Shown here: in pieces, positions 9,876 to 50,784 of the stretch
How positions within the stretch are numbered: the stretch's first letter is position 1
How the letters are laid out: each line of letters begins with the position of its first letter
Source: Nemertoderma westbladi
Taxonomy: Eukaryota > Animalia > Xenacoelomorpha
Assembly: GCA_032718475.1 (NCBI GenBank)
Contig: JAUCBJ010001918.1
Coordinates: 1-50,784 of the forward strand
Reading direction: 5' to 3'
Length of the DNA: 50,784 bases
The notes under the pieces: generated by a model
Seen by the model: the letters and a program-made list of their open reading frames with translations, nothing else
The model's database searches: none
Told to the model about the DNA's origin: nothing
Made by a program: the position numbers and the translations under genes

Positions 9876-9936
9876 GAAATCTGAAAACTGAAATTGGTAA
9901 CCATGTACTGAAATAAGTAACTGGAGACTGAAATTG

Positions 9937-18259: not shown

Positions 18260-21200
18260 GCTAATAGTGACTACCTTAGAGCTACATCATGCTACATGCT
18301 CTGCTAATAGTGACTACCTTAGAGCTACATCATGCTACATGCTCTGCTAATAGTGACTACCTTAAAGCTACACCATGCTACATGCTCTGCTAATAGAGAC
18401 TACCTTAGAGCTCCATCATGCTACATGCTCTGCTAATAGAGACTACCTTAGAGCTACATCATGCTACATGCTCTGCTAATAGTGACTACCTTAGAGCTAC
18501 ATCATGCTACGTTCTCTGCTAATAGTGACTACCTTAGAGCTACATCATGCTACATGCTCTGCTAATAGTGACTACCTTAGAGCTACATCATGCTACATGC
18601 TCTGCTAATAGTGACTACCTTAAAGCTACACCATGCTACATGCTCTGCTAATAGAGACTACCTTAGAGCTCCATCATGCTACATGCTCTGCTAATAGAGA
18701 CTACCTTAGAGCTACATCATGCTACATGCTCTGCTAATAGAGACTACCTTAGAGCTCCATCATGCTACATGCTCTGCTAATTGAGACTACCTTAGGGCTA
18801 CATCATGCTACATGCTCTGCTAATAGTGAGTACCTTAGAGTAGAGCTACATCATGCTACATTCTCTGCTAATAGAGACTACCTTAGAGCTCCATCATGCT
18901 ACATTATCTGCTAATAGTGACTACCTTAGAGCTACATCATGCTACATGCTCTGCTAATAGTGAGTACCTTAGAGTAGAGCTACATCATGCTACATTCTCT
19001 GCTAATAGTGACTACCTTAGAGCTACATCATGCTACATTATCTGCTAATAGTGACTACCTTAGAGCTACATCATGCTACATGCTCTGCTAATAGTGACTA
19101 CCTTAGAGCTACATCATGCTACATGCTCTGCTAATAGTGACTACCTTAGAGCTACATCATGCTACATGCTCTGCTAATAGAGACTACGTTAGAGCTACAT
19201 CATGCTACATGCTCTGCTAATAGTGAGTACCTTAGAGTAGAGCTACATCATGCTACATTATCTGCTAATAGTGACTACCTTAGAGCTACATCATGCTACA
19301 TTATCTGCTAATAGTGACTACCTTAGAGCTACATCATGCTACATGCTCTGCTAATAGTGACTACCTTAGAGCTACATCATGCTACATGCTCTGCTAATAG
19401 TGACTACCTTAGAGCTACATCATGCTACATGCTCTGCTAATAGTGACTACCTTAGAGCTTCATCATGCTACATGCTCTGCTAATAGTGACTACCTTAGAG
19501 CTACATCATGCTACATGCTCTGCTAATAGTGACTACCTTAGAGCTACATCATGCTACGTGCTCTGCTAATAGTGAGTACCTTAGAGTAGAGCTACATCAT
19601 GCTACATTATCTGCTAATAGTGACTACCTTAGAGCTACATCATGCTACATTATCTGCTAATAATGACTACCTTAGAGCTACATCATGCTACATGCTCTGC
19701 TAATAGTGACTACCTTAGAGCTACATCATGCTACATGCTCTGCTAATAGTGACTACCTTAGAGCTACATCATGCTACATGCTCTGCTAATAGTGACTACC
19801 TTAGAGCTTCATCATGCTACATGCTCTGCTAATAGTGACTACCTTAGAGCTACATCATGCTACATGCTCTGCTAATAGTGACTACCTTAGAGCTACATCA
19901 TGCTACGTGCTCTGCTAATAGTGAGTACCTTAGAGTAGAGCTACATCATGCTACATTATCTGCTAATAGTGACTACCTTAGAGCTACATCATGCTACATT
20001 ATCTGCTAATAATGACTACCTTAGAGCTACATCATGCTACATGCTCTGCTAATAGAGACTATACCTTAGAGCTACATCATGCTACATGCTCTACTAATAG
20101 TGAGTACCTTAGAGCTACATCATGCTACTTGCTCTGCTAATAGAGACTACCTTAGAGTAGAGCTACCTTAGAGCTACATCATGCTACATGCTCTACTAAT
20201 AGTGAGTACCTTAGAGCTACATCATGCTACATGCTCTGCTAATAGTGAGTACCTTAGAGCTACATCATGCTACATGCTGTGCTAATAGTGACTACCTTAG
20301 AGTAGAGCTACCTTAGAGCTACATCATGCTACATGCTCTACTAATAGTGAGTACCTTAGAGCTACATCATGCTACATGCTCTGTCTGCAAATAGTGAGTA
20401 CCTTAGAGCTACATCATGCTACATGCTGTGCTAATAGTGACTACCTTAGAGCTACATCATGCTACATGCTCTGCTAATAGTGAGTACCTTAGAGTAGAGC
20501 TACATCATGCTACATGCTCTGCTAATAGTGACTACCTTAGTGCTGCATCATGCTACATGCTCTGCTAATAGTGAGTACCTTAGAGTAGAGCTACATCATG
20601 CTACATGCTCTGCTAATAGTGACTACCTTAGAGCTACATCATGCTACATTCTCTGCTAATAGTGACTACCTTGGAGCTACATCATGCTACATGCTCTGCT
20701 AATAGAGACTACCTTAGAGCTACATCATGCTACATGCTCTGCTAATAGTGAGTACCTTAGTGCTACATCATGCTACATGCTCTGCTAATAGTGACTACCT
20801 TACGGCTACATCATGCTACATGCTCTGCTAATAGTGACTACCTTAGAGCTACATCATGCTACATGCTCTGCTAATAGTGACTACCTTAGAGCTACATCAT
20901 GCTACATGCTCTGCTAATAGTGAGTACCTTAGAGCTACATCATGCTACATAGTGAGCACCTTAGAGTAGAGCTACATCATGCTACATTCTCTGCTAATAG
21001 TGACTACCTTAGAGCTACATCATGCTACATGCTTTGCTAATAGTGACTACCTTAGAGCTAAATCATGCTACATGCTCTGCTGATAGTGAGTACCTTAGAG
21101 TAGAGCTACATCATGCTACATGCTCTGCTGATAGTGAGTACCTTAGAGCTACATCATGCTACATGCTCTGCTAATAGTGACTACCTTAGTGCTACATCAT

Positions 21201-23061
21201 GCTACATGCTCTGCTAATAGTGACTACCTTAGTGCTACATCATGCTACATTCTCTGCTAATAGTGACTACCTTAGAGCTACATCATGCTACATGCTCTGC
21301 TAATAGTGACTACCTTAGAGCTACATCATGCTACATGCTCTGCTAATAGTGACTACCTTAGAGCTACATCATGCTACGTGCTCTGCTGATAGTGAGTACC
21401 TTAGAGTATAGCTACATCATGCTACATGCTCAGCTAATAGTGACTACCTTAGAGCTACATCATGCTACATGCTCTGCTAATAGTGACTACCTTAGAGCTA
21501 CATCATGCTACATGCTCTGCAAATAGTGACTACCTTAGAGCTACATCATGCTACATGCTCTGCTGATAGTGAGTACCTTAGAGTAGAGCTACATCATGCT
21601 ACATGCTCTGCTAATAGTGACTACCTTAGAGCTACATCATGCTACATGCTCTGTTAATAGTGACTACCTTAGAGCTACATCATGCTACATGCTCTGCTAA
21701 TAGTGACTACCTTAGAGCTACATCATGCTACATGCTCTGCTAATAGTGACTACCTTAGAGCTACATCATGCTACATGCTCTGCTGATAGTGAGTACCTTA
21801 GAGTAGAGCTACATCATGCTACATGCTCTGCTAATAGTGACTACCTTAGAGCTATATCATGCTACATGCTCTGTTAATAGTGACTACCTTAGAGCTACAT
21901 CATGCTACATGCTCTGCTAATAGTGAGTACCTTAGAGTAGAGCTACATCATGCTACATGCTCTGCTAATAGTGAGTACCTTAGAGTAGAGCTACATCATG
22001 CTACATGCTCTGCTAATAGTGACTACCTTAGAGCTACATCATGCTACATGATCTGCTAATAGTGACTACCTTAGAGCTACATCATGCTACATGCTCTGCT
22101 AATAGAGACTACCTTAGAGCTACATCATGCTACATGCTCTGCTAATAGAGACTACCTTAGAGTAGAGCTACACCATGCTACATGCTCTGCTAATAGTGAG
22201 TACCTTAGAGTAGAGCTACATCATGCTACATGCTCTGCTAATAGTGACTACCTTAGAGCTACATCATGCTACATGCTCTGCTAATAGTGACTACCTTAGT
22301 GCTACATCATGCTACATGCTCTGCTAATAGTGACTACCATAGAGCTACATCATGCTACATGCTCTGCTAATAGTGACTACCTTAGAGCTACATCATGCTA
22401 CGTGCTCTGCTGATAGTGAGTACCTTAGAGCTACATCATGCTACATGCTCTGCTAATAGTGAGTACGTTAGAGTAGAGCTACATCATGCTACATGCTCTG
22501 CTAATAGAGAATATACCTTAGAGCTACATCATGCTACACGCTTTGATAATAGTGACTACCTTAGAGCTACATCATGCTACATGATCTGCTAATAGAGACT
22601 ACCTTAGAGTAGAGCTACACCATGCCACATGCTCTGCTAATAGTGAGTACCTTAGAGTAGAGCTACATCATGCTACATGCTCTGCTAATAGTGACTACCT
22701 TAGAGCTACATCATGCTACATGCTCTGCTAATAGTGACTACCTTAGAGCTACATCATGCTACATGCTCTGCTGATAGTGAGTACCTTAGAGTAGAGCTAC
22801 ATCATGCTACATGCTCTGCTAATAGTGACTACCTTAGAGCTACATCATGCTACATGCTCTGCTAATAGAGACTACCTTAGAGTAGAGCTACACCATGCTA
22901 CATGCTCTGCTAATAGTGAGTACCTTAGAGTAGAGCTACATCATGCTACATGCTCTGCTAATAGTGACTACCTTAGAGCTACATCATGCTACATGCTCTG
23001 CTAATAGTGACTACCTTAGAGCTACATCATGCTACATGCTCTGCTAATAGTGACTACCTTA
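18260..23061. repeat. 43-bp (variant 48-bp) satellite array, about 108 units; minus strand carries TAAG|GTAGTC in each unit
   Basis: Unit gctaatagtgactaccttagagctacatcatgctacatgctct; 5-nt gtaga insertion variant; local higher-order periods of 258 and 349 bp. Confidence 0.98.
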
Positions 23062-23108
23062 TATCTATATCCTCTACTTTGCGGCGGTTTTTCATAAACA
23101 TTCGATGG
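23058..23108 (-). CDS. Candidate 51-nt symmetric cassette exon (PSNVYEKPPQSRGYRYK) in the CFAP70 intron
   Basis: Acceptor ttgcctgcag|, donor TAAG|gtagtc coinciding with the start of the 43-bp array; open in phase 0. No homology support that I can recall. Confidence 0.35.
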
Positions 23109-23591: not shown

Positions 23592-26500
23592 GGCTATTTT
23601 CTGCTGTTTGTCCTTTGGAATTGCTTTTACTCACCTTTCACTTGGCTGCTTTCTGCTGTTTGTCCGTTGGAATTGCTTTGACTCACCTTCCCTCTCGGCT
23701 GCTTTCTGCTGTTTGTCCTTTAGAATTGCTTTGACTCACCTCCGCACTCGGCTGCTTTCTGCTGTTTGTCCGTTGGAATTGCTTTGACTCACCTTTCACT
23801 TGGCTGCTTTCTGCTGTTTGTCCGTTGGAATTACTTTTACTCAGCTTTCCCTTGGCTGCTTTCTGCTGTTTGTCCGTTGGAATTGCTTTGACTCACCTTC
23901 CCTTTCGGCTGCTTTCTGCTGTTTGTCCGTTGGAATTGCTTTGAATCACCTTCCCTTTCGGCTGCTTTCTGCTGTTTGTCCGTTGGAATTGCTTTGACTC
24001 ACCTTTCCCTTGGCTGCTTTCTGCTGTTTGTCCTTTGGAATTGCTTTGACTCACCTTCCCTCTCGTCTACTTTCTTCTGTTTGTCCGTTGGAATTGCTTT
24101 GACCCACCTTCCCTCTCGGCGGCTTTATGCTGTTTGTCCGTTGGAATTGCTTTGACTCACCTTCCCTCTCGTCTACTTTCTTCTGTTTGTCCGTTGGAAT
24201 TGCTTTGACCCACCTTCCCCTTGGCTGCTTTCTGCTGTTTGTCCGTTGGAATTGCTTTGACTCACCTTCCCTCTCGTCTACTTTCTTCTGTTTGTCCGTT
24301 GGAATTGCTTTGACCCACCTTCCCTCTCGGCGGCTTTATGCTGTTTGTCCGTTGGAATTGCTTTGTCTCACCTTCCCTCTCGGCTGCTTTCTGCTGTTTG
24401 TCCGTTGGAATTGCTTTGACTCACCTTCCCTCTCGGCTGCTTTCTGCTGTTTGTCCGTTGGAATTGCTTTTACTCACCTTCCCTCTCGGCTGCTTTCTGC
24501 TGTTTGTCCGTTGGAATTGCTTTGAATCACCTTCCCTTTCGGCTGCTTTCTGCTGTTTGTCCTTTGGAATTGCTTTGACTCACCTTCCCTCTCGTCTACT
24601 TTCTGCTGTTTGTTCGTTGGAATTGCTTTGACTCACCTTTCCCTTGGCTGCTTTCTGCTGTTTGTCCGTTGGAATTGCTTTGTCTCACCTTCCCTCTCGG
24701 CTGCTTTCTGCTGTTTGTCCGTTGGAATTGCTTTGACTCACCTTCCCTCTCGTCTACTTTCTGCTGTTTGTTCGTTGGAATTGCTTTGACTCACCTTTCC
24801 CTTGGCTGCTTTCTGCTGTTTGTCCGTTGGAATTGCTTTGACTCACCTTCCCTCTCGTCTACTTTCTGCTGTTTGTCCGTTGGAATTGCTTTGTCTCACC
24901 TTCCCTCTCGGCTGCTTTCTGCTGTTTGTCCGTTGGAATTGCTTTGACTCACCTTCCCTCTCGTCTACTTTCTGCTGTTTGTCCGTTGGAATTGCTTTGA
25001 CTCACCTTCCCTCTCGTCTACTTTCTGCTGTTTGTCCGTTGGAATTGCTTTGACCCACCTTCCCCTTGGCTGCTTTCTGCTGTTTGTCCGTTGGAATTGC
25101 TTTGACTCACCATCCCTCTCGGCTGCTTTCTGCTGTTTGTCCGTTGGAATTGCTTTGACTCACCTTCCCTCTCGGCTGCTTTCTGCTGTTTGTCCGTTGG
25201 AATTGCTTTTACTCACCTTCCCTCTCGGCTGCTTTCTGCTGTTTGTCCGTTGGAATTGCTTTGACTCGCCTTTCCACTTGCCCACTTTCTGCTGTTTGTC
25301 CTTTGGAATTGCTTTGACTCACCTTCCCTCTCGTCTACTTTCTGCTGTTTGTTCGTTGGAATTGCTTTGACTCACCTTTCCCTTGGCTGCTTTCTGCTGT
25401 TTGTCCGTTGGAATTGCTTTGACTCACCTTCCCTCTCGGCTGCTTTCTGCTGTTTGTCCGTTGGAATTGCTTTGACTCACCTTCCCTCTCGTCTACTTTC
25501 TGCTGTTTGTCCGTTGGAATTGCTTCGACTCACCTTCCCCTCGGCTACTTTCTGCTGTTTGTCCGTTGGAATTGCTTTGACTCACCTTCCCTCTCGTCTA
25601 CTTTCTGCTGTTTGTCCGTTGGAATTGCTTTGACTCAGCTTTTCCTTGGCTGCTTTCTGCTGTTTGTCCTTTGGAATTGCTTTGACGCACCTTCCCTCTC
25701 GTCTACTTTCTGCTGTTTGTTCGTTGGAATTGCTTTGACTCACCTTCCCTCTCGTCTACTTTCTGCTGTTTGTCCGTTGGAATTGCTTTGACTCACCTTT
25801 CCCTTGGCTGCTTTCTGTTGTTTGTCCGTTGGAATTGCTTTGACTCACCTTCCCCTAGGCGGCTTTGTCCGTTGGAATTGCTTTGACTCACCTTCCCTCT
25901 CGTCTACTTTCTGCTGTTTGTCCGTTGGAATTGCTTTGACTCACCTTCCCTCTCGTCTACTTTCTGCTGTTTGTCCGTTGGAATTGCTTTGACTCACCTT
26001 TCCCTTGGCTGCTTTCTGTTGTTTGTCCGTTGGAATTGCTTTGACTCACCTTCCCCTAGGCGGCTTTGTCCGTTGGAATTGCTTTGACTCACCTTCCCTC
26101 TCGTCTACTTTCTGCTGTTTGTCCGTTGGAATTGCTTTGACTCAGCTTTTCCTTGGCTGCTTTCTGCTGTTTGTCCTTTGGAATTGCTTTGACTCACCTT
26201 CCCTCTCGTCTACTTTCTGCTGTTTGTTCGTTGGAATTGCTTTGACTCACCTTCCCTCTCGTCTACTTTCTGCTGTTTGTCCGTTGGAATTGCTTTGACT
26301 CACCTTTCCCTTGGCTGCTTTCTGTTGTTTGTCCGTTGGAATTGCTTTGACTCACCTTCCCCTAGGCGGCTTTGTCCGTTGGAATTGCTTTGACTCACCT
26401 TCCCTCTCGTCTACTTTCTGCTGTTTGTCCGTTGGAATTGCCTACTTTCTGCTGTTTGTCCGTTGGAATTGCTTTGACTCACCTTCCCTTTCGGCTGCTT

Positions 26501-29500
26501 TCTGCTGTTTGTCCGTTGGAATTGCTTTGACTCAGCTTTTCCTTGGCTGCTTTCTGCTGTTTGTACGTTGGAATTGCTTTGACTCACCTTTCCCTTGGCT
26601 GCTTTCTGCTGTTTGTCCTTTGGAATTGCTTTGACTCACCTTCCCTCTCGTCTACTTTCTGCTGTTTGTCCCTTCCCTCTCGTCTACTTTCTGCTGTTTG
26701 TCCGTTGGAATTGCTTTGACTCACCTTTCCCTTGGCTGCTTTCTGTTGTTTGTCCGTTGGAATTGCTTTGACTCACCTTCCCCTAGGCGGCTTTGTCCGT
26801 TGGAATTGCTTTGACTCACCTTCCCTCTCGTCTACTTTCTGCTGTTTGTCCGTTGGAATTGCTTTGACTCAGCTTTTCCTTGGCTGCTTTCTGCTGTTTG
26901 TCCGTTGAAATTACTTTGACTCACCTTTCCCTTGGCTGCTTTCTGTTGTTTGTCCGTTGGAATTGTTTTGACTCACCTTCCCCTAGGCGGCTTTGTCCGT
27001 TGGAATTGCTTTGACTCACCTTTCCCTTGGTTGCTTTCTGCTGTTTGTCCGTTGGAATTGCTTTGACTCACCTTTCCCTTGGCTGCTTTCTGCTGTTTGT
27101 CCTTTAGAATTGCTTTGACTCACCTTCCCTCTCGTCTACTTTCAGATGTTTGTCCGTTGGAATTGCTTTGACTCACCTTCCCACTCGGCTGCTTTCTGCT
27201 GTTTGTCCGTTGGAATTGCTTTGATTCACCTTCCCTCTCGGCGGCTTTATGCTGTTTGTCCGTTGGAATTGCTTTGACTCACCTTCCCTCTCGGCTGCTT
27301 TCTGCTGTTTGTCCGTTGGAATTGCTTTGACTCGCCTTTCCACTTGCCCACTTTCTGCTGTTTGTCCGTTGGAATTGCTTTGACTCACCTTCCCTCTCGT
27401 CTACTTTCTTCTGTTTGTCCGTTGGAATTGCTTTGACCCACCTTCCCTCTCGGCGGCTTTATGCTGTTTGTCCGTTGGAATTGCTTTGACTCACCTTCCC
27501 TCTCGTCTACTTTCTTCTGTTTGTCCGTTGGAATTGCTTCGACTCACCTTCCCCTTGGCTGCTTTCTGCTGTTTGTCCATTGGAATTGCTTTGACTCACC
27601 TTCCCCTAGGCAGCTTTGTCCGTTGGAATTGCTTTGACTCACCTTCCCTCTCGTCTACTTTCTTCTGTTTGTCCGTTGGAATTGCTTTGACTCGCCTTTC
27701 CACTTGCCCACTTTCTGCTGTTTGTCCGTTGGAATTGCTTTGACTCACCTTCCCTCTCGTCTACTTTCTTCTGTTTGTCCGTTGGAATTGCTTTGACCCA
27801 CCTTCCCTCTCGGCGGCTTTATGCTGTTTGTCCGTTGGAATTGCTTTGACTCACCTTCCCTCTCGTCTACTTTCTTCTGTTTGTCCGTTGGAATTGCTTT
27901 GCCTCACCTTTCCTCTCGTCTACTTTCTGCTGTTTGTCCGTTGGAATTCCATTGACTCACCTTCCCCTAGGCAGCTTTGTCCGTAGGAATTGCTTTGACT
28001 CACCTTCCTTCTCGTCTACGTTCTGCTGTTTGTCCGTTGGAATTGCTTTGACTCACCTTTCCCTTGGCTGCTTTCTGCTGTTTGTCCGTTGGAATTGCTT
28101 TGACTCACCTTTCCTCTCGTCTACTTTCTGCTGTTTGTCCGTTGGAATTCCATTGACTCACCTTCCCCTAGGCAGCTTTGTCCGTTGGAATTGCTTTGAC
28201 TCACCTTTCCCTTGGCTGCTTTCTGTTGTTTGTCCGTTGGAATTGCTTTGACTCGCCTTTCCCTTGGCTGCTTTATGTTGTTTGTCCGTAGGAATTGCTT
28301 TGACTCACCTTTCCCTTGGCTGCTTTCTGTTGTTTGTCCGTAGGAATTGCTTTGACTCACCTTTCCCTTGGCTGCTTTCTGCTGTTTGTCCGTTGGAATT
28401 GCTTTGACTCACCTTCCCTCTCGGCTGCTTTATGCTGTTTGTCCGTTGGAATTGCTTTGACTCACCTTCCCACTCGGCTGCTTTCTGCTGTTTGTCCGTT
28501 GGAATTGCTTTGATTCACCTTCCCCTTGGTTGCTTTCTGCTGTTTGTCCTTTGGAATTGCTTTTACTCACCTTTCCCTTGGCTGCTTTCTGCTGTTTGTC
28601 CGTTGGAATTGCTTTGACTCACCTTCCCTCTCGGCTGCTTTATGCTGTTTGTCCGTTGGAATTGCTTTGACTCACCTTTCCCTTGGCTGCTTTCTGCTGT
28701 TTGTCCGTTGAAATTGCTTTTACTCACCTTTCACTTGGCTGCTTTCTGCTGTTTGTCCGTTGGAATTGCTTTGACTCACCTTCCCCCTCGGCTGCTTTCT
28801 GCTGTTTGTCCGTTGGAATTGCTTTGACTCACCTTCCCTCTCGGCGGCTTTATGCTGTTTGTCCGTTGGAATTGCTTTTACTCACCTTCCCCCTCGGCTG
28901 CTTTTTGCTGTTTGTCCTTTGGAATTGCTTTGACTCACCTTCCCACTCGGCTGCTTTCTGCTGTTTGTCCGTTGGAATTGCTTTGATTCACCTTCCCTCT
29001 CGGCGGCTTTATGCTGTTTGTCCGTTGGAATTGCTTTGACTCACCTTCCCTCTCGGCTGCTTTCTGCTGTTTGTCCGTTGGAATTGCTTTGACTCGCCTT
29101 TCCACTTGCCCACTTTCTGCTGTTTGTCCGTTGGAATTGCTTTGACCCACCTTCCCTCTCGGCGGCTTTATGCTGTTTGTCCGTTGGAATTGCTTTGACT
29201 CACCTTCCCTCTCGTCTACTTTCTTCTGTTTGTCCGTTGGAATTGCTTCGACTCACCTTCCCCTTGGCTGCTTTCTGCTGTTTGTCCATTGGAATTGCTT
29301 TGACTCACCTTCCCCTAGGCAGCTTTGTCCGTTGGAATTGCTTTGACTCACCTTTCCCTTGGCTGCTTTCTGCTGTTTGTCCGTTGGAATTGCTTTGACT
29401 CACCTTCCCCTAGGCAGCTTTGTCCGTTGGAATTGCTTTGACTCACCTTTCCCTTGGCTGCTTTCTGTTGTTTGTCCGTTGGAATTGCTTTGACTCGCCT

Positions 29501-38500: not shown

Positions 38501-39728
38501 TTCTGTTGTTTGTCCGTAGGAATTGCTTTGACTCACCTTTCCCTTGGCTGCTTTCTGTTGTTTGTCCGTAGGAATTGCTTTGACTCACCTTTCCCTTGGC
38601 TGCTTTCTGCTGTTTGTCCGTAGGAATTGCTTTGACTCACCTTTCCCTTGGCTGCTTTCTGCTGTTTGTCCGTTGGAATTGCTTTGACTCACCTTCCCAC
38701 TCGGCTGCTTTCTGCTGTTTGTCCGTTGGAATTGCTTTGACTCACCTTCCCACTCGGCTGCTTTCTGCTGTTTGTCCGTAGGAATTGCTTTGACTCACCT
38801 TCCTTCTCGTCTACGTTCTGCTGTTTGTCCGTTGGAATTGCTTTGACTCACCTTTCCCTTGGCTGCTTTCTGCTGTTTGTCCGTTGGAATTGCTTTGACT
38901 CACCTTCCCACTCGGCTGCTTTCTGCTGTTTGTCCGTAGGAATTGCTTTGACTCACCTTTCCCTTGGCTGCTTTCTGCTGTTTGTCCGTTGGAATTGCTT
39001 TGACTCACCTTCCCACTCGGCTGCTTTCTGCTGTTTGTCCGTTGGAATTGCTTTGACTCACCTTTCCCTTGGCTGCTTTCTGTTGTTTGTCCGTAGGAAT
39101 TGCTTTGACTCACCTTTCCCTTGGCTGCTTTCTGCTGTTTGTCCGTAGGAATTGCTTTGACTCACCTTTCCCTTGGCTGCTTTCTGCTGTTTGTCCGTAG
39201 GAATTGCTTTGACTCACCTTTCCCTTGGCTGCTTTCTGCTGTTTGTCCGTTGGAATTGCTTTGACTCACCTTCCCACTCGGCTGCTTTCTGCTGTTTGTC
39301 CGTTGGAATTGCTTTGACTCACCTTCCCCTTGGCTGCTTTCTGCTGTTTGTCCGTTGGAATTGCTTTGACTCACCTTCCCACTCGGCTGCTTTCTGCTGT
39401 TTGTCCGTTGGAATTGCTTTGACTCACCTTTCCCTTGGCTGCTTTCTGTTGTTTGTCCGTAGGAATTGCTTTGACTCACCTTTCCCTTGGCTGCTTTCTG
39501 TTGTTTGTCCGTAGGAATTGCTTTGACTCACCTTTCCCTTGGCTGCTTTCTGCTGTTTGTCCGTAGGAATTGCTTTGACTCACCTTCCCCTTGGCTGCTT
39601 TCTGCTGTTTGTCCGTTGGAATTGCTTTGACTCACCTTTCCCTTGGCTGCTTTCTGCTGTTTGTCCGTTGGAATTGCTTTGACTCACCTTTCCCTTGGCT
39701 GCTTTCTGTTGTTTGTCCGTAGGAATTG
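23592..39728. repeat. 52/53-bp satellite array of about 16.1 kb (about 310 units), derived from the CFAP70 exon end plus its 5' splice site
   Basis: Minus-strand unit caattccaacggacaaacagcagaaagcagccaagggaaag|gtgagtcaaag; the terminal unit is the last 41 nt of exon 39688-39781. Confidence 0.98.
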
Positions 39729-39781
39729 TTCTCATTACTTCAACCGGCCAGTACCGAGTCGACGCTATCTTTGATTGTAAC
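39688..39781 (-). CDS. CFAP70: CFAP70 internal exon ((K)LQSKIASTRYWPVEVMRTIPTDKQQKAAKGK)
   Basis: Acceptor tttattag|G, donor AAG|gtgagt; 94 nt, phase 2 to 0; only this frame is open. Resembles recalled CFAP70 FQKRIADCRLWPVEITR. Confidence 0.85.
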
Positions 39782-40127
39782 CTAATAAACAATAATAATC
39801 CCGCCTGATTACAACATATTCCCAACTCTACTATATTTAACGCCATGAATCAAGAAATATATAAATTAATGATGAGCTACGGGTTTAATATTTCACTGAG
39901 TGAAATATATTAGATAGAGTATTCCTACCGTATTTTTATATAATATTTTAAGTGGCTGCTTACAAAGTTTATTATATTGCCAACATACCGGAAGACAGGC
40001 CAATATCCGTTATCAGATAAATTATTCTGTGAAAAAGCAACCTCAGTGTCATTCTTATAAGATATCAGGGAAATAAATAGATCCCTTAATAATTGATAAT
40101 TTGTTATAATTAAGTAGATAAACTAAC

Positions 40128-40277
40128 TTTTGCGCCAAATTTGGTTCAACGAAATGACAGCGTTCCATGTTCCACACAACGCGGTTCTTATTCTGTTCGG
40201 CATCGGAACGCATATCGTGGTCGTCTTTGGAACGGAGTTCCCCACACTCATCCTCGTAGTGTGTTTGTGGTAAACAA
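40128..40277 (-). CDS. CFAP70: CFAP70 internal exon (CLPQTHYEDECGELRSKDDHDMRSDAEQNKNRVVWNMERCHFVEPNLAQ)
   Basis: Acceptor gtgttccag|T, donor AA|gttagt; 150 nt, phase 2/2, joins the next exon in frame. Resembles recalled CFAP70 YEEEEGELNHPEDSEFRNQAE...RIIWDLESRCYLDP. Confidence 0.85.
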
Positions 40278-40781
40278 CTGGAACACAAATAATAAACAAC
40301 TAGAACACAAACAATAAACAACTGGGACACAAACAATAAACAACTGGAACACAAACAATAAACAACTGGGACACAAACAATAAACAACTGGAACACAAAC
40401 AATAAGCGACTGGAAAACAAACAATAAACAACTGGAACACAAACAATATACAACTGAAACACAAACAACTGGAACACAAATAATAAACAACTGGAACACA
40501 AACAATAAACAACTGGAACACAAACAATATACAACTGAAACACAAACAACTGGAACACAAATAATAAACAACTGGAACACAAACAATAAACAATTGGAAC
40601 ACAAACAATAAACAACTGGAACACAAACAATAAACAACTGAAACACAAACACAAACAATAAACAACTGGAACACAAACAATAAACAACTGGAACACAAAC
40701 AATAATCAACTGGAACACTAATAATAAACAACTGCAACACAAACAATAAACAACTGGAACACTAACAATAATCAACTAGAA
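40271..40781. repeat. 22-bp tandem array (about 23 units) derived from the CFAP70 3' splice site
   Basis: Minus-strand unit ttgtttgtgttccag|ttgttta; the last copy is the real acceptor plus the first 7 exon nucleotides. Confidence 0.95.
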
Positions 40782-43700
40782 CTCTGTCCAATTGAATTAA
40801 CAACGTGTGTCCAACTTACCTGTCAGTTATATAAGAACTCTGTCCAACTGAATTAACAACGTGTGTCCAAATTACCGGTCAGTTATATAAGAACTCTGCC
40901 CAACTGAATTAACAACGTGTGTCCATATTACGGGTCAGTTATATAAGAACTCTGTCCAACTGAATTAACAACGTGTGTCCAAATTACCGGTCAGTTATAT
41001 AAGAACTCTGCCCAACTGAATTAACAACGTGTGTCTAACTTACCTGTCAGTTATATAAGAACTCTGACCAACTGAATTAACAACGTGTGTCTAACTTACC
41101 TGTCAGTTATATAAGAACTCTGCCCAACTGAATTAATAACTTGTGTCCAACTTACCTGTCAGTTATATAAGAACTATAAGAACTCTGCCCAACTGAATTA
41201 ACAACGTGTGTCTAACTTACCTGTCAGTTATATAAGAACTCTGCCCAACTGAATTAATAACTTGTGTCCAACTTACCGGTCAGTTATATAAGAACTCTGC
41301 CCAACTGAATTAACAACGTGTGTCCAAATTACCGGTCAGTTATATAAGAACTCTGCCCAACTGAATTAACAACGTGTGTCCAACTTACCGGTCAGTTATA
41401 TAAGAACTCTGCCCAACTGAATTAATAACTTGTGTCCAACTTACCTGTCAGTTATATAAGAACTCTGTCCAACTGAATTAACAACGTGTGTCCAAATTAC
41501 CGGTCAGTTATATAAGAACTCTGCCCAACTGAATTAACAACGTGTGTCCAACTTACCGGTCAGTTATATAAGAACTCTGCCCAACTGAATTAATAACTTG
41601 TGTCCAACTTACCTGTCAGTTATATAAGAACTCTGTCCAACTGAATTAACAACGTGTGTCCAAATTACCGGTCAGTTATATAAGAACTCTGCCCAACTGA
41701 ATTAACAACGTGTGTCTAACTTACCTGTCAGTTATATAAGAACTCTGCCCAACTGAATTAATAACTTGTGTCCAACTTACCTGTCAGTTATATAAGAACT
41801 CTGTCCAACTGAATTAACAACGTGTGTCCAAATTACCGGTCAGTTATATAAGAACTCTGCCCAACTGAATTAACAACGTGTGTCCAACTTACCTGTCAGT
41901 TATATAAGAACTCTGTCCAACTGAATTAACAACGTGTGTCCAACTTACCTGTTAGTTATATAAGAACTCTGTCCAACTGAATTAACAACGTGTGTCCAAC
42001 TTACCGGTCAGTTATATAAGAACTCTGCCCAACTGAATTAACAACGTGTGTCTAACTTACCTGTCAGTTATATAAGAACTCTGCCCAACTGAATTAATAA
42101 CTTGTGTCCAACTTACCGGTCAGTTATATAAGAACTCTGCCCAACTGAATTAATAACTTGTGTCCAACTTACCGGTCAGTTATATAAGAACTCTGCCCAA
42201 CTGAATTAACAACGTGTGTCCAACTTACGGGTCAGTTATAAGAACTCTGCCCAACTGAATTAACAACGTGTGTCTAACTTACCTGTCAGTTATATAAGAA
42301 CTCTGCCCAACTGAATTAATAACTTGTGTCCAACTTACCGGTCAGTTATATAAGAACTCTGTCCAACTGAATTAACAACTTGTGTTCAACTTACCTGTCA
42401 GTTATATAAGAACTCTGCCCAACTGAATTAACAACGTGTGTCTAACTTACCTGTCAGTTATATAAGAACTCTGCCCAACTGAATTAATAACTTGTGTCAA
42501 ACTTACCGGTCAGTTATATAAGAACTCTGTCCAACTGAATTAACAACTTGTGTTCAACTTACCTGTCAGTTATATAAGAACTCTGTCCAACTGAATTAAC
42601 AACGTGTGTCCAACTTACCGGTCAGTTATATAAGAACTCTGTCCAACTGAATTAACAACGTGTGTCCAACTTACCGGTCAGTTGAATAAGAACTCTGCCC
42701 AACTGAATTAATAACTTGTGTCCAACTTACCGGTCAGTTATATAAGAACTCTGCCCAACTGAATTAATAACTTGTGTCCAACTTACCGGTCAGTTATATA
42801 AGAACTCTGCCCAACTGAATTAACAACGTGTGTCCAACTTACGGGTCAGTTATAAGAACTCTGCCCAACTGAATTAACAACGTGTGTCTAACTTACCTGT
42901 CAGTTATATAAGAACTCTGCCCAACTGAATTAATAACTTGTGTCCAACTTACCGGTCAGTTATATAAGAACTCTGTCCAACTGAATTAACAACTTGTGTT
43001 CAACTTACCTGTCAGTTATATAAGAACTCTGCCCAACTGAATTAACAACGTGTGTCTAACTTACCTGTCAGTTATATAAGAACTCTGCCCAACTGAATTA
43101 ATAACTTGTGTCAAACTTACCGGTCAGTTATATAAGAACTCTGTCCAACTGAATTAACAACTTGTGTTCAACTTACCTGTCAGTTATATAAGAACTCTGT
43201 CCAACTGAATTAACAACGTGTGTCCAACTTACCGGTCAGTTATATAAGAACTCTGTCCAACTGAATTAACAACGTGTGTCCAACTTACCGGTCAGTTGAA
43301 TAAGAACTACGTCCAACTGAATTAACAGCGTATGTCCAACTTACCTGTCAGTTATATAAGAACTCTGTCCAACTGAATTAATAACTTGTGTTCAACTTAC
43401 CTGTCAGTTATATAAGAACTCTGTCCAACTGAATTAACAACGTGTGTCCAACTTACGGGTCAGTTATATAAGAACTCTGCCGAACTGAATTAACAACGTG
43501 TGTCTAACTTACCTGTCAGTTATATAAGAACTCTGCCCAACTGAATTAATAACTTGTGTCAAACTTACCGGTCAGTTATATAAGAACTCTGTCCAACTGA
43601 ATTAACAACTTGTGTTCAACTTACCTGTCAGTTATATAAGAACTCTGTCCAACTGAATTAACAACGTGTGTCCAACTTACCGGTCAGTTATATAAGAACT

Positions 43701-46700
43701 CTGTCCAACTGAATTAACAACGTGTGTCCAACTTACCGGTCAGTTGAATAAGAACTCCGTCCAACTGAATTAACAGCGTATGTCCAACTTACCTGTCAGT
43801 TATATAAGAACTCTGTCCAACTGAATTAACAACTTGTGTCCAACTTACCTGTCAGTTATATAAGAACTCTGCCCAACTGAATTAACAACTTGTGTCCAAC
43901 TTACCGGTCAGTTATATAACCAACTGAATTAACAACGTGTGTCCAACTTACCTGTCATTTATATAAGAACTCTGTCCAACTGAATTAACAACGTGTGTCC
44001 AACTTAACTGTCAGTTATAAAAGAATTCTGCCCAACTGAATTAACAAGGTGTGTCCAACTTACCTGTCAGTTATATAAGAACTCTGCCCAACTGAATTAA
44101 CAACGTGTGTCCAACTTACCTGTCAGTTATATAAGAACTCTGCCCAACTGAATTAACAACGTGTGTCCAACTTACCGGTCAGTTATATAAGAACTCTGTC
44201 CAACTTAATTAACAACGTGTGTCCAACTTACCGGTCAGTTAAATAAGAACTCTGCCCAACTTATTTAACAACGTGTGTCCAACTTACCTGTCAGTTATAT
44301 AAGAACCTTGTCCAACTGTATTAACAACGTGTGTTCAAATTACCGGTCAGTTATATAAGAACTCTGCCCAACTGAATTAACAACGTGTGTTCAACTTACG
44401 GGTCAGTTATATAAGAACTCTGCCCAACTGAATTAACAACGTGTGTCTAACTTACCTGTCAGTTATATAAGAACTCTGCCCAACTGAATTAATAACTTGT
44501 GTCCAACTTACCGGTCAGTTATATAAGAACTCTGTCCAACTGAATTAACAACTTGTGTTCAACTTACCTGTCAGTTATATAAGAACTCTGTCCAACTGAA
44601 TTAACAACGTGTGTCCAACTTACCGGTCAGTTATATAAGAACTCTGTCCAACTGAATTAACAACGTGTGTCCAACTTTCCGGTCAGTTAAATAAGAACTC
44701 CGTCCAACTGAATTAACAGCGTATGTCCAACTTACCTGTCAGTTATATAAGAACTCTGTCCAACTGAATTAACAACTTGTGTCCAACTTACCTGTCAGTT
44801 ATATAAGAACTCTGCCCAACTGAATTAACAACTTGTGTCCAACTTACCGTTCAGTTATATAACCAACTGAATTAACAACGTGTGTCCAACTTACCTGTCA
44901 TTTATATAAGAACTCTGTCCAACTGAATTAAAAACGTGTGTCCAACTTAACCGTCAGTTATAAAATAATTCTGCCCAACTGAATTAACAAGGTGTGTCCA
45001 ACTTACCTGTCAGTTATATAAGAACTCTGCCCAACTGAATTAACAACGTGTTTCCAACTTACGTGTCAGTTATATAAGAACTCTGCCCAACTGAATTAAC
45101 AACGTGTGTCCAAATTACCGGTCAGTTATATAAGAACTCTGCCCAACTGAATTAACAACGTGTGTCCAACTTACCGGTCAGTTATATAAGAACTCTGCCC
45201 AACTGAATTAATAACTTGTGTCCAACTTACCTGTCAGTTATATAAGAACTCTGTCCAACTGAATTAACAACGTGTGTCCAAATTACCGCTTAGTTATATA
45301 AGAACTCTGCCCAACTGAATTAACAACGTGTGTCTAACTTACCTGTCAGTTATATAAGAACTCTGCCCAACTGAATTAACAAGGTGTGTCTAACTTACCT
45401 GTCAGTTATATAAGAACCCTGCCCAACTGAATTAATAACTTGTGTCAAACTTACCGGTCAGTTATATAAGAACTCTGTCCAACTGAATTAACAACTTGTG
45501 TTCAACTTACCTGTCAGTTATATAAGAACTCTGTCCAACTGAATTAACAACGTGTGTCCAACTTACCGGTCAGTTATATAAGAACTCTGTCCAACTGAAT
45601 TAACAACGTGTGTCCAACTTACCGGTCAGTTGAATAAGAACTCCGTCCAACTGAATTAACAGCGTATGTCCAACTTACCTGTCAGTTATATAAGAACTCT
45701 GTCCAACTGAATTAATAACTTGTGTTCAACTTACCTGTCAGTTATATAAGAACTCTGTCCAACTGAATTAACAACGTGTGTCCAACTTACGGGTCAGTTA
45801 TATAAGAACTCTGCCCAACTGAATTAACAACGTGTGTCTAACTTACCTGTCAGTTATATAAGAACTCTGCCCAACTGAATTTATAACTTGTGTCAAACTT
45901 ACCGGTCAGTTATATAAGAACTCTGTCCAACTGAATTAACAACTTGTGTTCAACTTACCTGTCAGTTATATAAGAACTCTGTCCAACTGAATTAACAACG
46001 TGTGTCCAACTTACCGGTCAGTTATATAAGAACTCTGTCCAACTGAATTAACAACGTGTGTCCAACTTACCGGTCAGTTGAATAAGAACTCCGTCCAACT
46101 GAATTAACAGCGTATGTCCAACTTACCTGTCAGTTATATAAGAACTCTGTCCAACTGAATTAACAACTTGTGTCCAACTTACCTGTCAGTTATATAAGAA
46201 CTCTGCCCAACTGAATTAACAACTTGTGTCCAACTTACCGGTCAGTTATATAACCAACTGAATTAACAACGTGTGTCCAACTTACCTGTCATTTATATAA
46301 GAACTCTGTCCAACTGAATTAACAACGTGTGTCCAACTTAACTGTCAGTTATAAAAGAATTCTGCCCAACTGAATTAACAAGGTGTGTCCAACTTACCTG
46401 TCAGTTATATAAGAACTCTGCCCAACTGAATTAACAACGTGTGTCCAACTTACCTGTCAGTTATATAAGAACTCTGCCCAACTGAATTAACAACGTGTGT
46501 CCAACTTACCGGTCAGTTATATAAGAACTCTGTCCAACTTAATTAACAACGTGTGTCCAACTTACCGGTCAGTTAAATAAGAACTCTGCCCAACTTATTT
46601 AACAACGTGTGTCCAACTTACCTGTCAGTTATATAAGAACCTTGTCCAACTGTATTAACAACGTGTGTTCAAATTACCGGTCAGTTATATAAGAACTCTG

Positions 46701-49700
46701 CCCAACTGAATTAACAACGTGTGTTCAACTTACGGGTCAGTTATATAAGAACTCTGCCCAACTGAATTAACAACGTGTGTCTAACTTACCTGTCAGTTAT
46801 ATAAGAACTCTGCCCAACTGAATTAATAACTTGTGTCCAACTTACCGGTCAGTTATATAAGAACTCTGTCCAACTGAATTAACAACTTGTGTTCAACTTA
46901 CCTGTCAGTTATATAAGAACTCTGTCCAACTGAATTAACAACGTGTGTCCAACTTACCGGTCAGTTATATAAGAACTCTGTCCAACTGAATTAACAACGT
47001 GTGTCCAACTTTCCGGTCAGTTAAATAAGAACTCCGTCCAACTGAATTAACAGCGTATGTCCAACTTACCTGTCAGTTATATAAGAACTCTGTCCAACTG
47101 AATTAACAACTTGTGTCCAACTTACCTGTCAGTTATATAAGAACTCTGCCCAACTGAATTAACAACTTGTGTCCAACTTACCGTTCAGTTATATAACCAA
47201 CTGAATTAACAACGTGTGTCCAACTTACCTGTCATTTATATAAGAACTCTGTCCAACTGAATTAAAAACGTGTGTCCAACTTAACCGTCAGTTATAAAAG
47301 AATTCTGCCCAACTGAATTAACAAGGTGTGTCCAACTTACCTGTCAGTTATATAAGAACTCTGCCCAACTGAATTAACAACGTGTTTCCAACTTACGTGT
47401 CAGTTATATAAGAACTCTGCCCAACTGAATTAACAACGTGTGTCCAACTTACCGGTCAGTTATATAAGAACTCTGTCCAACTTAATTAACAACGTGTGTC
47501 CAACTTACCGGTCAGTTAAATAAGAACTCTGCCCAACTTATTTAACAACGTGTGTCCAACTTACCTGTCAGTTATATAAGAACCTTGTCCAACTGTATTA
47601 ACAACGTGTGTTCAAATTACCGGTCAGTTATATAAGAACTCTGCCCAACTGAATTAACAACGTGTGTTCAACTTACGGGTCAGTTATATAAGAACTCTGC
47701 CCAACTGAATTAACAACGTGTGTCTAACTTACCTGTCAGTTATATAAGAACTCTGCCCAACTGAATTAATAACTTGTGTCCAACTTACCGGTCAGTTATA
47801 TAAGAACTCTGTCCAACTGAATTAACAACGTGTGTCCAACTTTCCGGTCAGTTAAATAAGAACTCCGTCCAACTGAATTAACAGCGTATGTCCAACTTAC
47901 CTGTCAGTTATATAAGAACTCTGTCCAACTGAATTAACAACTTGTGTCCAACTTACCTGTCAGTTATATAAGAACTCTGCCCAACTGAATTAACAACTTG
48001 TGTCCAACTTACCGTTCAGTTATATAACCAACTGAATTAACAACGTGTGTCCAACTTACCTGTCATTTATATAAGAACTCTGTCCAACTGAATTAAAAAC
48101 GTGTGTCCAACTTAACCGTCAGTTATAAAAGAATTCTGCCCAACTGAATTAACAAGGTGTGTCCAACTTACCTGTCAGTTATATAAGAACTCTGCCCAAC
48201 TGAATTAACAACGTGTTTCCAACTTACGTGTCAGTTATATAAGAACTCTGCCCAACTGAATTAACAACGTGTGTCCAAATTACCGGTCAGTTATATAAGA
48301 ACTCTGCCCAACTGAATTAACAACGTGTGTCCAACTTACCGGTCAGTTATATAAGAACTCTGCCCAACTGAATTAATAACTTGTGTCCAACTTACCTGTC
48401 AGTTATATAAGAACTCTGTCCAACTGAATTAACAACGTGTGTCCAAATTACCGCTTAGTTATATAAGAACTCTGCCCAACTGAATTAACAACGTGTGTCT
48501 AACTTACCTGTCAGTTATATAAGAACTCTGCCCAACTGAATTAACAAGGTGTGTCTAACTTACCTGTCAGTTATATAAGAACCCTGCCCAACTGAATTAA
48601 TAACTTGTGTCAAACTTACCGGTCAGTTATATAAGAACTCTGTCCAACTGAATTAACAACTTGTGTTCAACTTACCTGTCAGTTATATAAGAACTCTGTC
48701 CAACTGAATTAACAACGTGTGTCCAACTTACCGGTCAGTTATATAAGAACTCTGTCCAACTGAATTAACAACGTGTGTCCAACTTACCGGTCAGTTGAAT
48801 AAGAACTCCGTCCAACTGAATTAACAGCGTATGTCCAACTTACCTGTCAGTTATATAAGAACTCTGTCCAACTGAATTAATAACTTGTGTTCAACTTACC
48901 TGTCAGTTATATAAGAACTCTGTCCAACTGAATTAACAACGTGTGTCCAACTTACGGGTCAGTTATATAAGAACTCTGCCCAACTGAATTAACAACGTGT
49001 GTCTAACTTACCTGTCAGTTATATAAGAACTCTGCCCAACTGAATTTATAACTTGTGTCAAACTTACCGGTCAGTTATATAAGAACTCTGTCCAACTGAA
49101 TTAACAACTTGTGTTCAACTTACCTGTCAGTTATATAAGAACTCTGTCCAACTGAATTAACAACGTGTGTCCAACTTACCGGTCAGTTATATAAGAACTC
49201 TGTCCAACTGAATTAACAACGTGTGTCCAACTTACCGGTCAGTTGAATAAGAACTCCGTCCAACTGAATTAACAGCGTATGTCCAACTTACCTGTCAGTT
49301 ATATAAGAACTCTGTCCAACTGAATTAACAACTTGTGTCCAACTTACCTGTCAGTTATATAAGAACTCTGCCCAACTGAATTAACAACTTGTGTCCAACT
49401 TACCGGTCAGTTATATAACCAACTGAATTAACAACGTGTGTCCAACTTACCTGTCATTTATATAAGAACTCTGTCCAACTGAATTAACAACGTGTGTCCA
49501 ACTTAACTGTCAGTTATAAAAGAATTCTGCCCAACTGAATTAACAAGGTGTGTCCAACTTACCTGTCAGTTATATAAGAACTCTGCCCAACTGAATTAAC
49601 AACGTGTGTCCAACTTACCTGTCAGTTATATAAGAACTCTGCCCAACTGAATTAACAACGTGTGTCCAACTTACCGGTCAGTTATATAAGAACTCTGTCC

Positions 49701-50784
49701 AACTTAATTAACAACGTGTGTCCAACTTACCGGTCAGTTAAATAAGAACTCTGCCCAACTTATTTAACAACGTGTGTCCAACTTACCTGTCAGTTATATA
49801 AGAACCTTGTCCAACTGTATTAACAACGTGTGTTCAAATTACCGGTCAGTTATATAAGAACTCTGCCCAACTGAATTAACAACGTGTGTTCAACTTACGG
49901 GTCAGTTATATAAGAACTCTGCCCAACTGAATTAACAACGTGTGTCTAACTTACCTGTCAGTTATATAAGAACTCTGCCCAACTGAATTAATAACTTGTG
50001 TCCAACTTACCGGTCAGTTATATAAGAACTCTGTCCAACTGAATTAACAACTTGTGTTCAACTTACCTGTCAGTTATATAAGAACTCTGTCCAACTGAAT
50101 TAACAACGTGTGTCCAACTTACCGGTCAGTTATATAAGAACTCTGTCCAACTGAATTAACAACGTGTGTCCAACTTTCCGGTCAGTTAAATAAGAACTCC
50201 GTCCAACTGAATTAACAGCGTATGTCCAACTTACCTGTCAGTTATATAAGAACTCTGTCCAACTGAATTAACAACTTGTGTCCAACTTACCTGTCAGTTA
50301 TATAAGAACTCTGCCCAACTGAATTAACAACTTGTGTCCAACTTACCGTTCAGTTATATAACCAACTGAATTAACAACGTGTGTCCAACTTACCTGTCAT
50401 TTATATAAGAACTCTGTCCAACTGAATTAAAAACGTGTGTCCAACTTAACCGTCAGTTATAAAAGAATTCTGCCCAACTGAATTAACAAGGTGTGTCCAA
50501 CTTACCTGTCAGTTATATAAGAACTCTGCCCAACTGAATTAACAACGTGTTTCCAACTTACGTGTCAGTTATATAAGAACTCTGCCCAACTGAATTAACA
50601 ACGTGTGTCCAACTTACCGGTCAGTTATATAAGAACTCTGTCCAACTTAATTAACAACGTGTGTCCAACTTACCGGTCAGTTAAATAAGAACTCTGCCCA
50701 ACTTATTTAACAACGTGTGTCCAACTTACCTGTCAGTTATATAAGAACCTTGTCCAACTGTATTAACAACGTGTGTTCAAATTA
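40778..50784. repeat. 56-bp satellite array (at least 10 kb, at least 178 units, runs off the window) with C(A/C)G|GTAAGT on the minus strand
   Basis: Unit agaactctg(t/c)ccaactgaattaacaacgtgtgtccaacttacc(t/g)gtcagttatata; recurrent 47-bp deletion variant. Confidence 0.98.

What the first reader, a model, noticed from the sequence alone, without database searches (positions are those of the whole stretch)
18260..50784. Satellite arrays built from the host gene's own splice junctions
Seen: four arrays with unrelated units (43, 52/53, 22 and 56 bp) each contain a splice site on the CFAP70 sense strand. The three whose anchored end is visible start exactly at an exon boundary and share sequence with the exon (one of those exons is only a candidate). 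The pre-mRNA would carry roughly 600 extra donor-like sites and about 20 extra acceptors. Inference: repeated independent origin at junctions suggests a splice-site-linked amplification mechanism, or selection for dense U1-binding arrays (suppression of premature polyadenylation, stepwise splicing, intron delay). It recalls the satellite-filled giant introns of Drosophila Y-linked axonemal dynein genes (kl-3, kl-5), but here the unit is the junction itself.
Basis: partly seen in the sequence, partly recalled or inferred. Interest (0 to 1): 0.92.

Follow-up and report, generated by a model that had tools for sequence, protein, structure and literature searches.

The report
Splice-junction "mirage" arrays in CFAP70 introns
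Three of four tandem arrays in this animal's cilia gene CFAP70 are copies of the gene's own exon edges with their splice signals, repeated up to about 300 times, and the one joined, likely RNA-derived sequence found uses the outermost real sites, so this is likely a very large but tolerated example of a repeat type already known from lancelets and humans.

Summary
The four arrays are real. Three are copied splice junctions of a minus-strand CFAP70 gene: the 52/53-bp array (308 units; last 41 exon bases + 11 intron bases), the 56-bp array (179 units in the window; last 50 bases of the upstream exon + GTAAGT, anchor found beyond the window) and the 22-bp array (15 intron + 7 exon bases). The 43-bp array is not supported: its donor is chance-level (P=0.62) and its candidate exon is not needed by homologues. 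One contig from another sample, likely RNA-derived, joins the first donor to the last acceptor across both arrays of one intron. Donor motifs are not specially conserved and the arrays hold no poly(A) hexamers, so a selected U1 array is not supported. This is the known "mirage"/F7-type junction-spanning minisatellite; this scan has reported it many times on other genomes. What stands out is size and three junctions in three consecutive exons. Why such arrays seem to start at junctions stays open: 3 of 8 arrays here against about 3% expected each, but the window was picked for this.

The parts
40778..50784 (-). 56-bp donor array, 179 units in the window, continues beyond it; unit = last 50 bases of the upstream CFAP70 exon + first 6 intron bases (GTAAGT). 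The authentic exon lies beyond 50784.
   Evidence: 179 units, 168 with GT, 83 perfect U1 match; unit reads WTHVVNSVGQSSYITD in the predicted register, best of 112 registers against 9 homologue segments, 1/2001 and 1/301 in shuffles; X1 record 5: one full unit followed by unique exon
40271..40782 (-). 22-bp acceptor array, about 23 units; unit = last 15 intron bases + first 7 bases of exon A; abuts the 56-bp array with no unique DNA between in this assembly
   Evidence: (21 upstream acceptor-like sites, 6 in frame, 5 of them stop-free)
40128..40277 (-). CFAP70 exon A (150 nt, phase 2/2)
   Evidence: (tblastn best E 1.4e-8); (X4 record 22 joins the upstream exon to its first base)
39782..40127 (-). 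ordinary 346-nt intron A-B, no array at either end
39688..39781 (-). CFAP70 exon B (94 nt, phase 2/0), carries the WPVE motif; its last 41 bases are the exonic part of the 52/53-bp unit
   Evidence: (23 of 33 homologues hit this bin)
23598..39728 (-). 52/53-bp donor array, 308 units, 16.1 kb; unit = last 41 bases of exon B + first 11 intron bases; holds an exact 4603-bp block duplicated at offset 4554
   Evidence: (286 of 308 keep GT, 251 match U1 at 7 of 9)
   Evidence: W-to-F spacing 30 without it, 47 with it; homologues median 31, 18 of 19 at most 37; 25 such cassette-like windows in 7.5 kb of non-array DNA
18260..23061 (.). 43-bp array, about 108 units; intronic, donor-like word is chance-level; junction origin not shown
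16114..17856 (+). TRMT1, single open frame, nested antisense in CFAP70 intron B-D
4149..11666 (-). EPRS (three coding exons), nested on the same strand as CFAP70 in intron B-D
2472..3143 (+). SLD5/GINS4, single open frame, nested antisense in intron B-D
225..362 (-). CFAP70 exon D (138 nt, phase 0/0), the FHGVA exon that follows exon B in homologues
   Evidence: (33 of 33 long homologues)

Best explanation
Three arrays are tandem copies of CFAP70's own exon-intron boundaries (mirage or F7-type minisatellites) that likely began as short local duplications across existing junctions, likely grew by unequal exchange, and are likely tolerated passengers because the spliceosome takes the outermost site. 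Shown: unit anatomy, anchoring at three junctions, large exact internal blocks, and one joined sequence that uses the first donor and last acceptor. Inferred: slippage at short direct repeats as the seed (the same 6 bases start exon A and lie 15 bases upstream in the intron; the last 5 bases of the upstream exon recur exactly one unit, 56 bases, earlier), neutrality, and removal of rare decoy-donor products by nonsense-mediated decay. The 43-bp array is likely an ordinary intronic minisatellite.
For: Anatomy. Anchor of the 56-bp array: X1 record 5, 539 bp at single-copy depth 30.7, one unit then unique sequence that reads D-K-D-V-Q-Q-R-Q-K-R before the unit's W, matching the Aplysia homologue at that place. 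Outermost sites used: X4 record 22 (2624 bp, another sample and study) carries exactly the 50 exonic bases once, and its next 30 shown letters equal the first 30 bases of exon A (compared by eye). X4 behaves like an RNA assembly: 0.86 of EPRS-region words against 0.81-0.87 expected for spliced mRNA; 814 bases before the W codon against residue 219-252 in 7 homologues; 1 record laid against 27 and 275 in X1 and X2. Turnover: exact blocks of 4603, 2653 and 1417 bp. No donor-specific conservation. Decoy donors are unproductive: a stop follows at once in 175 of 179 56-bp copies; in the 53-bp array the first two shift the frame and a stop lies 105 bases in. Introns A-B and B-D sit at about the places where genomic homologue fragments break (read by eye), so the arrays grew at old junctions. 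Four other arrays in the window are not at junctions. Precedent: PMC1557585, PMC3087553, PMC3902484.
Against: A purely random origin does not explain 3 of 8 arrays at junctions (P 0.0004-0.003; post hoc). X4 is only guessed to be DNA or RNA by the tool and is a single collapsed contig, so minor isoforms and an intron-less DNA copy are not excluded. No joined sequence was seen for the exon B donor, the largest array. Stepwise splicing would give the same mature junction, and 83 copies of the 56-bp unit are YAG|GT. Five upstream acceptors would give stop-free in-frame inserts of 22-120 residues, so the acceptor array is not protected by decay. The acceptor of candidate exon C is not an outlier (7 of 11 pyrimidines; real ones 6-9). 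The exact blocks could be assembly over-expansion.
Confidence: 0.75

Rival explanations
1. Junction-biased origin: a process tied to transcription or splicing (paused polymerase, R-loops or breaks at splice sites in germ-line-expressed genes) seeds duplications preferentially at exon edges in this lineage; the arrays are then tolerated as in the main explanation. Compatible with the main reading on function, different on origin.
For: 3 of 8 arrays and 3 of about 11 junctions, expected about 2-4% per array; three unrelated units at consecutive exons of one gene; both donor and acceptor types; the scan's notes list the type in many other animals (unchecked); PMC3087553 calls the genomic mechanism unclear.
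Against: The window was chosen for this feature; no genome is held, so no unbiased count; short direct repeats at two of the three anchors suffice for slippage; four of four EPRS junctions and three other CFAP70 junction ends have no array; survivor bias (wholly exonic duplications are purged) contributes.
Confidence: 0.25
2. Selected function: dense U1 sites protect the long CFAP70 pre-mRNA from premature polyadenylation, serve as stepwise splicing points, or delay expression.
For: About 16 strong donors per kb in two arrays against 0.5 per kb in the rest of the intron; the intron holds a same-strand nested gene (EPRS) whose end must be read through; 83 YAG|GT copies in the 56-bp array; both large arrays give very high contig depth in a second sample too.
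Against: No donor-specific conservation (ranks 14 of 53, 54 of 56); 0 poly(A) hexamers inside the arrays, 27 of 30 more than 5 kb beyond the last strong copy while U1 protection is quoted at about 500 nt in Drosophila (PMC4889658 passages); the 3 nearby hexamers would have been near the authentic donor before expansion (inference); 0 of 282 AG|GT sites of the 53-bp array are YAG|GT and pyrimidine counts are 1-5 of 11.
Confidence: 0.08
3. Assembly artefact or dispersed satellite families inserted by chance near exons.
For: Exact 4.6-kb and 2.7-kb duplicated blocks; no shown contig bridges the 22-bp/56-bp fusion at 40778 (288 records not shown); no long reads seen.
Against: Units are the local exon's own coding sequence; units occur in contigs of X1, X2 and X3 at many times single-copy depth, and one contig covers 23040-23627 without a difference in X1 and in the independent X2 (it reaches only about 20 and 30 letters into the two arrays). 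Only the copy number is open to this objection.
Confidence: 0.05
4. All four arrays are junction copies: exon C is a real, lineage-specific cassette exon and the 43-bp unit is its diverged donor.
For: 51 nt, phase 0/0, open frame, CAG acceptor; 11 of its last 14 bases match the unit; GT kept in 106 of 106 anchored copies (the anchor pattern itself favours GT).
Against: Homologue spacing fits without it (30 against median 31; 47 with it); donor 5 of 9, chance P 0.62; such windows are common (25 in 7.5 kb); in the other arrays the exon copy is near-identical to the unit.
Confidence: 0.15

Closest known systems
Amphioxus 'mirage' minisatellites (Adh3, globins BflGb6 and BflGb9, troponin C, PGBD5). 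Seen: passages of PMC3087553 and one passage of PMC3902484; the original Adh3 paper PMC117041 was not held and is known to me only through these citations.
   Same: Tandem units spanning exon-intron boundaries, both donor and acceptor side, unit sizes 10-160 bp, normal splicing reported, concerted evolution within clusters.
   Different: Copy numbers here are 23, at least 179 and 308 (globin clusters: 3-6 units); arrays reach 16 kb; another, unplaced animal lineage (best homologues 40-43% identical); length polymorphism not tested here.
Human F7 intron 7 37-bp VNTR, with CBS intron 13, interferon-inducible 6-16 intron 2, lamin B2 and PDGF cases. Seen: abstract, Introduction and Discussion of PMC1557585.
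   Same: First unit straddles the donor; downstream copies are functional-looking pseudo-sites; the most upstream site is normally used.
   Different: 5-25 copies there, one array per gene named; units there are mostly intronic (F7: 4 exon + 33 intron bases), here mostly exonic (41 of 52, 50 of 56). In 6-16 and CBS two pseudo-sites are also used; not testable here.
Drosophila Y-linked gigantic genes kl-3 and kl-5. Seen: passages of PMC11207136, search listing and abstract start of PMC6508621.
   Same: Axonemal gene with repeat-filled, enlarged introns.
   Different: Megabase introns of satellite DNA transcribed over days there; 10.5+ kb and 39.3 kb here, with units copied from the gene's own exons and half of the long intron made of nested genes.
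Internal tandem repeats at exon-intron boundaries that create introns (PMC2812944, outline and passages; Rogers model as cited there).
   Same: Tandem duplication across or beside splice signals.
   Different: Introns A-B and B-D appear older than their arrays; whether the intron upstream of exon A is old was not established.

Membership tests
Mirage / F7-type junction-spanning minisatellite | Tandem unit spans an exon-intron boundary of the host gene | tested here: met
   52/53-bp, 56-bp and 22-bp arrays
Mirage / F7-type junction-spanning minisatellite | Same feature for the 43-bp array | tested here: not met
   Flanking exon unsupported, donor chance-level; no RNA read could test it directly
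Mirage / F7-type junction-spanning minisatellite | Terminal unit is the authentic junction and copies run into the intron | tested here: met
   Exons A and B in the window; upstream exon in X1 record 5
Mirage / F7-type junction-spanning minisatellite | Unit length in the minisatellite range (10-160 bp in PMC3087553) | tested here: met
   22, 52/53 and 56 bp
Mirage / F7-type junction-spanning minisatellite | Normal splicing uses the authentic site (56-bp and 22-bp arrays) | tested here: met
   X4 record 22; one contig, run not on record as RNA
Mirage / F7-type junction-spanning minisatellite | Normal splicing uses the authentic site (52/53-bp array) | not tested
Mirage / F7-type junction-spanning minisatellite | Length instability between alleles or cells | not testable with these tools
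   Only collapsed contigs available; exact internal blocks point to recent turnover
Drosophila-type gigantic satellite introns | Introns of hundreds of kb to Mb | tested here: not met
   Intron B-D 39,325 bp; the upstream intron is at least 10.5 kb, its full length lies outside the window
Drosophila-type gigantic satellite introns | Y linkage and dedicated spermatocyte expression program | not testable with these tools
   No genome, no run on record as RNA
Recursive splicing points (definition recalled: pyrimidine tract + YAG directly followed by a donor) | Acceptor-like sequence before AG|GT, 52/53-bp array | tested here: not met
   0 of 282 are YAG|GT, 1-5 pyrimidines of 11; real acceptors 6-9
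Recursive splicing points (definition recalled: pyrimidine tract + YAG directly followed by a donor) | Acceptor-like sequence before AG|GT, 56-bp array | tested here: inconclusive
   83 of 88 are YAG|GT but with 4-5 pyrimidines of 11, just under the real range; needs nascent RNA

The most novel reading that the evidence does not exclude
In this lineage a splicing- or transcription-coupled process seeds tandem amplification at exon edges so often that whole introns of long ciliary genes become donor array fused to acceptor array, as assembled here upstream of exon A, and the spliceosome still picks the outermost pair among hundreds of equal sites; a genome-wide count would then expose a mutation bias at splice sites and give a natural test of splice-site choice at 300 copies.
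Probability: 0.2. Interest if true: 0.7.

Novelty: new member of a known kind. Interest (0 to 1): 0.27.

Why it matters
As it stands, it is a large, clean example of a described repeat type, with sequence evidence that first-donor and last-acceptor choice holds across at least 10.5 kb and some 200 decoy sites, about ten times the copy number of the human cases in PMC1557585. It would matter more if a genome-wide count showed that arrays start at junctions more than chance allows, because the origin of mirages is called unclear in PMC3087553 and I found no genome-wide enrichment test in five searches (open-access library only).

Tried and rejected
Whole genome: none held, so the genome-wide test could not be run. 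RNA: no RNA holder listed. No shown record bridges the 22-bp/56-bp fusion at 40778 with 31 letters on both sides (22 records shown, 288 not). Summed contig depths were not used as copy numbers. Word-index protein search with exon D found nothing; the full scan did. The tblastn output was cut between about 20,200 and 27,800, so it says nothing on candidate exon C; only the motif spacing does (19 of 33 long homologues had both motifs; the other 14 were left out). The profile used 9 of 33 homologues, two of them one residue out of register. Rfam: 0 matches. Lineage: SLD5 and TRMT1 searches gave only 40-43% best identity across many animals; a paper search on a glass-sponge guess returned nothing; the lineage is left unplaced. 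Look-ups of earlier notes on this genome, on relatives and by TRMT1 sequence were empty. PMC10078293 passages added nothing. No supplementary files were opened; the mirage alignments in those of PMC3087553 might bear on the comparison of unit anatomy. Rejected: arrays as coding repeats of CFAP70 (X4 join, stops, homologue spacing); arrays as creators of introns A-B and B-D; folding or complex prediction as irrelevant.
Full report
Setting. The window comes from an animal with no close relative among the proteins searched (best identities 40-43% for SLD5 and TRMT1). No genome is held. The left third encodes SLD5 (+), EPRS (-, three coding exons) and TRMT1 (+). A full scan with the exon at 362-225 returned 82 proteins; four of eight looked up are named CFAP70 by a source. 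These homologues also match exon A (40277-40128) and exon B (39781-39688) in the right order on the minus strand. Exon B and exon D are consecutive in homologues, so the intron between them is 39,325 bp and holds the 52/53-bp array, the 43-bp array and three nested genes. That B and D are joined in RNA was not seen directly.

Observation. All four arrays exist at the stated places and make up 31.4 of the 32.5 kb of the finding. No unit matches outside its own array in the window. The 52/53-bp array has 308 donor-phase units, 286 with GT and 251 matching the U1 consensus at 7 of 9 positions; its first unit is the last 41 bases of exon B and the first 11 of the intron. The 22-bp array has 23 anchored units of 15 intron and 7 exon bases and ends 7 bases inside exon A. 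The terminal units straddle the boundaries; they do not start at them.

The 56-bp array. Its anchor is outside the window. Read in the phase that exon A requires, the unit's last 50 bases give WTHVVNSVGQSSYITD, which is the best of 112 registers against nine homologue segments (score 8.7, next -10.3; 1 of 2001 shuffles at fixed register, 1 of 301 for the best register; 9 of 33 homologues passed the pattern). Laying public contigs on 40735-40885 then showed the anchor: X1 record 5 (539 bp, depth 30.7) is one full unit followed by unique sequence that continues the CFAP70 frame. So the unit is 50 exon bases plus GTAAGT. Of 179 units in the window, 168 keep GT and 83 are a perfect U1 match.

The 43-bp array. 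Its best donor-like word matches 5 of 9 positions, which 62% of 5000 shuffled units reach; two mid-intron control arrays reach 6 of 9. The candidate 51-nt exon is in frame, but the distance between the WPVE and FHG motifs is 30 residues without it and 47 with it, against a median of 31 in 19 homologues, 18 of them at most 37. Windows that look like such a cassette exon occur 25 times in 7.5 kb of non-array DNA. Against my reading: its acceptor is not weaker than real ones (7 of 11 pyrimidines, real 6-9), and 11 of its last 14 bases match the unit; I read the latter as a decayed edge unit. I give the exon about 15%.

Which sites are used. X4 record 22 (2624 bp, depth 121.6, a different sample and study) carries the 50 exonic bases once, with the same unique exon sequence on one side and, on the other, 30 shown letters equal to the first 30 bases of exon A (compared by eye). 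This is the first donor joined to the last acceptor, with both arrays gone. The tool lists X4's kind only as a guess, DNA. I infer an RNA assembly from three points: it holds 0.86 of the words of 3900-7600, where spliced EPRS predicts 0.81-0.87; it has 814 bases before the W codon, which is residue 219-252 in seven homologues; and one record was laid where X1 and X2 gave 27 and 275. An intron-less DNA copy remains possible, and a contig hides minor isoforms. No join was seen for the exon B donor.

Are the arrays in other individuals? One contig covers 23040-23627 with no difference in X1 and in the independent X2, reaching about 20 and 30 letters into the two arrays, and unit contigs are far above single-copy depth in X1, X2 and X3. 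This supports presence, not length. Exact blocks of 4603 bp (offset 4554), 2653 bp and 1417 bp show recent block-wise growth or some assembly over-expansion. As assembled, the last 56-bp unit runs straight into the first 22-bp unit; no shown contig bridges that point.

Tests of function. If U1 binding were selected, the donor 9-mer should be the best-kept part of the unit. It ranks 14 of 53 and 54 of 56 windows, and the -2 A is changed in half of the 56-bp units (copies are not independent events). The arrays hold no AATAAA or ATTAAA on the sense strand; 27 of the 30 in intron B-D lie more than 5 kb past the last strong donor copy, while protection is quoted at about 500 nt in Drosophila (PMC4889658, passages). 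The 53-bp copies cannot be recursive sites by sequence (0 of 282 YAG|GT); the 56-bp copies are borderline (83 of 88 YAG|GT, 4-5 pyrimidines), and stepwise splicing would give the same mature join, so it is not excluded. Use of a decoy donor would be unproductive: a stop follows immediately in 175 of 179 56-bp copies, and 105 bases into the 53-bp array, after two frame-shifting copies. Five of 21 upstream acceptors would give stop-free in-frame inserts.

Origin. Short direct repeats sit at two anchors: six bases shared by the start of exon A and the intron 15 bases upstream, and the last five bases of the upstream exon recurring exactly 56 bases earlier (read). Slippage followed by unequal exchange is the simplest route; this is inference. 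Genomic fragments among the homologues break at about the A-B and B-D positions (read by eye), so these introns look older than their arrays. Four further arrays in the window (60-bp and 40-bp in EPRS intron 1, a palindromic 22-bp, a 292-bp) are not at junctions, so this genome makes arrays freely. Still, 3 of 8 at junctions exceeds uniform placement (P 0.0004-0.003). That figure is post hoc, in a window selected for the feature, and only motivates a genome-wide test.

Comparison. Minisatellites whose first unit spans a donor are described for human F7, CBS, 6-16, lamin B2 and PDGF, with 5-25 copies and the most upstream site normally used (PMC1557585: abstract, Introduction, Discussion). Donor-side and acceptor-side cases in amphioxus are named mirages, do not disturb splicing, and have an origin called unclear (PMC3087553 passages; PMC3902484 passage). 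The original Adh3 paper was not held. The Drosophila gigantic genes differ in scale and in the source of the repeat (PMC11207136 passages; PMC6508621 listing). Earlier notes of this scan report the same kind in sharks, rays, urchins, an abalone, an annelid and other invertebrates, including a 260-copy, 11-kb case in a cilia gene and multi-intron cases; I did not check their DNA. Five searches showed no genome-wide test of junction enrichment; the library is open-access only.

Verdict. Observation partly confirmed: three of four arrays. New, very large member of a known kind; likely tolerated passengers (0.75). Selected U1 function 0.08. The open and testable point is a junction bias in origin. 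Interest 0.27.

Noticed in passing
window 363-39687: The CFAP70 intron B-D holds three housekeeping genes: TRMT1 and SLD5 antisense and intron-less in their coding parts, and EPRS on the same strand as CFAP70, so the host transcript would have to read through EPRS and its end.
   Followed up: partly
window 40278-50784: As assembled, the visible part of this intron is donor array directly fused to acceptor array, with no unique DNA; the join falls in a short shared word. Not bridged by any shown contig.
   Followed up: partly
window 8070-10063 and 10170-10206: 60-bp (30 copies) and 40-bp arrays in EPRS intron 1 are built from related 20-bp subunits, with a weak inverted copy nearby; not at a junction.
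   Followed up: partly
window 14618-15075: Fold-back structure: 92-nt arms at 89% complementarity and a palindromic 22-bp array; looks like a MITE or fold-back element (label recalled, untested).
   Followed up: no
window 1020-2165: Two 292-bp units made of about 147-bp subunits, followed by an (ACG)n microsatellite; the layout recalls Helentron-associated non-autonomous elements, and each subunit carries a CTCF-like word (both labels recalled, untested).
   Followed up: no
window 17124-17279: In-frame 36-bp repeat (about 4 copies) inside the TRMT1 coding sequence.
   Followed up: no
   Followed up: no
window 40055-40705, - strand: The acceptor array is stop-free in the exon A frame for over 140 codons, so upstream acceptors at multiples of three units would add hydrophobic inserts.
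   Followed up: partly
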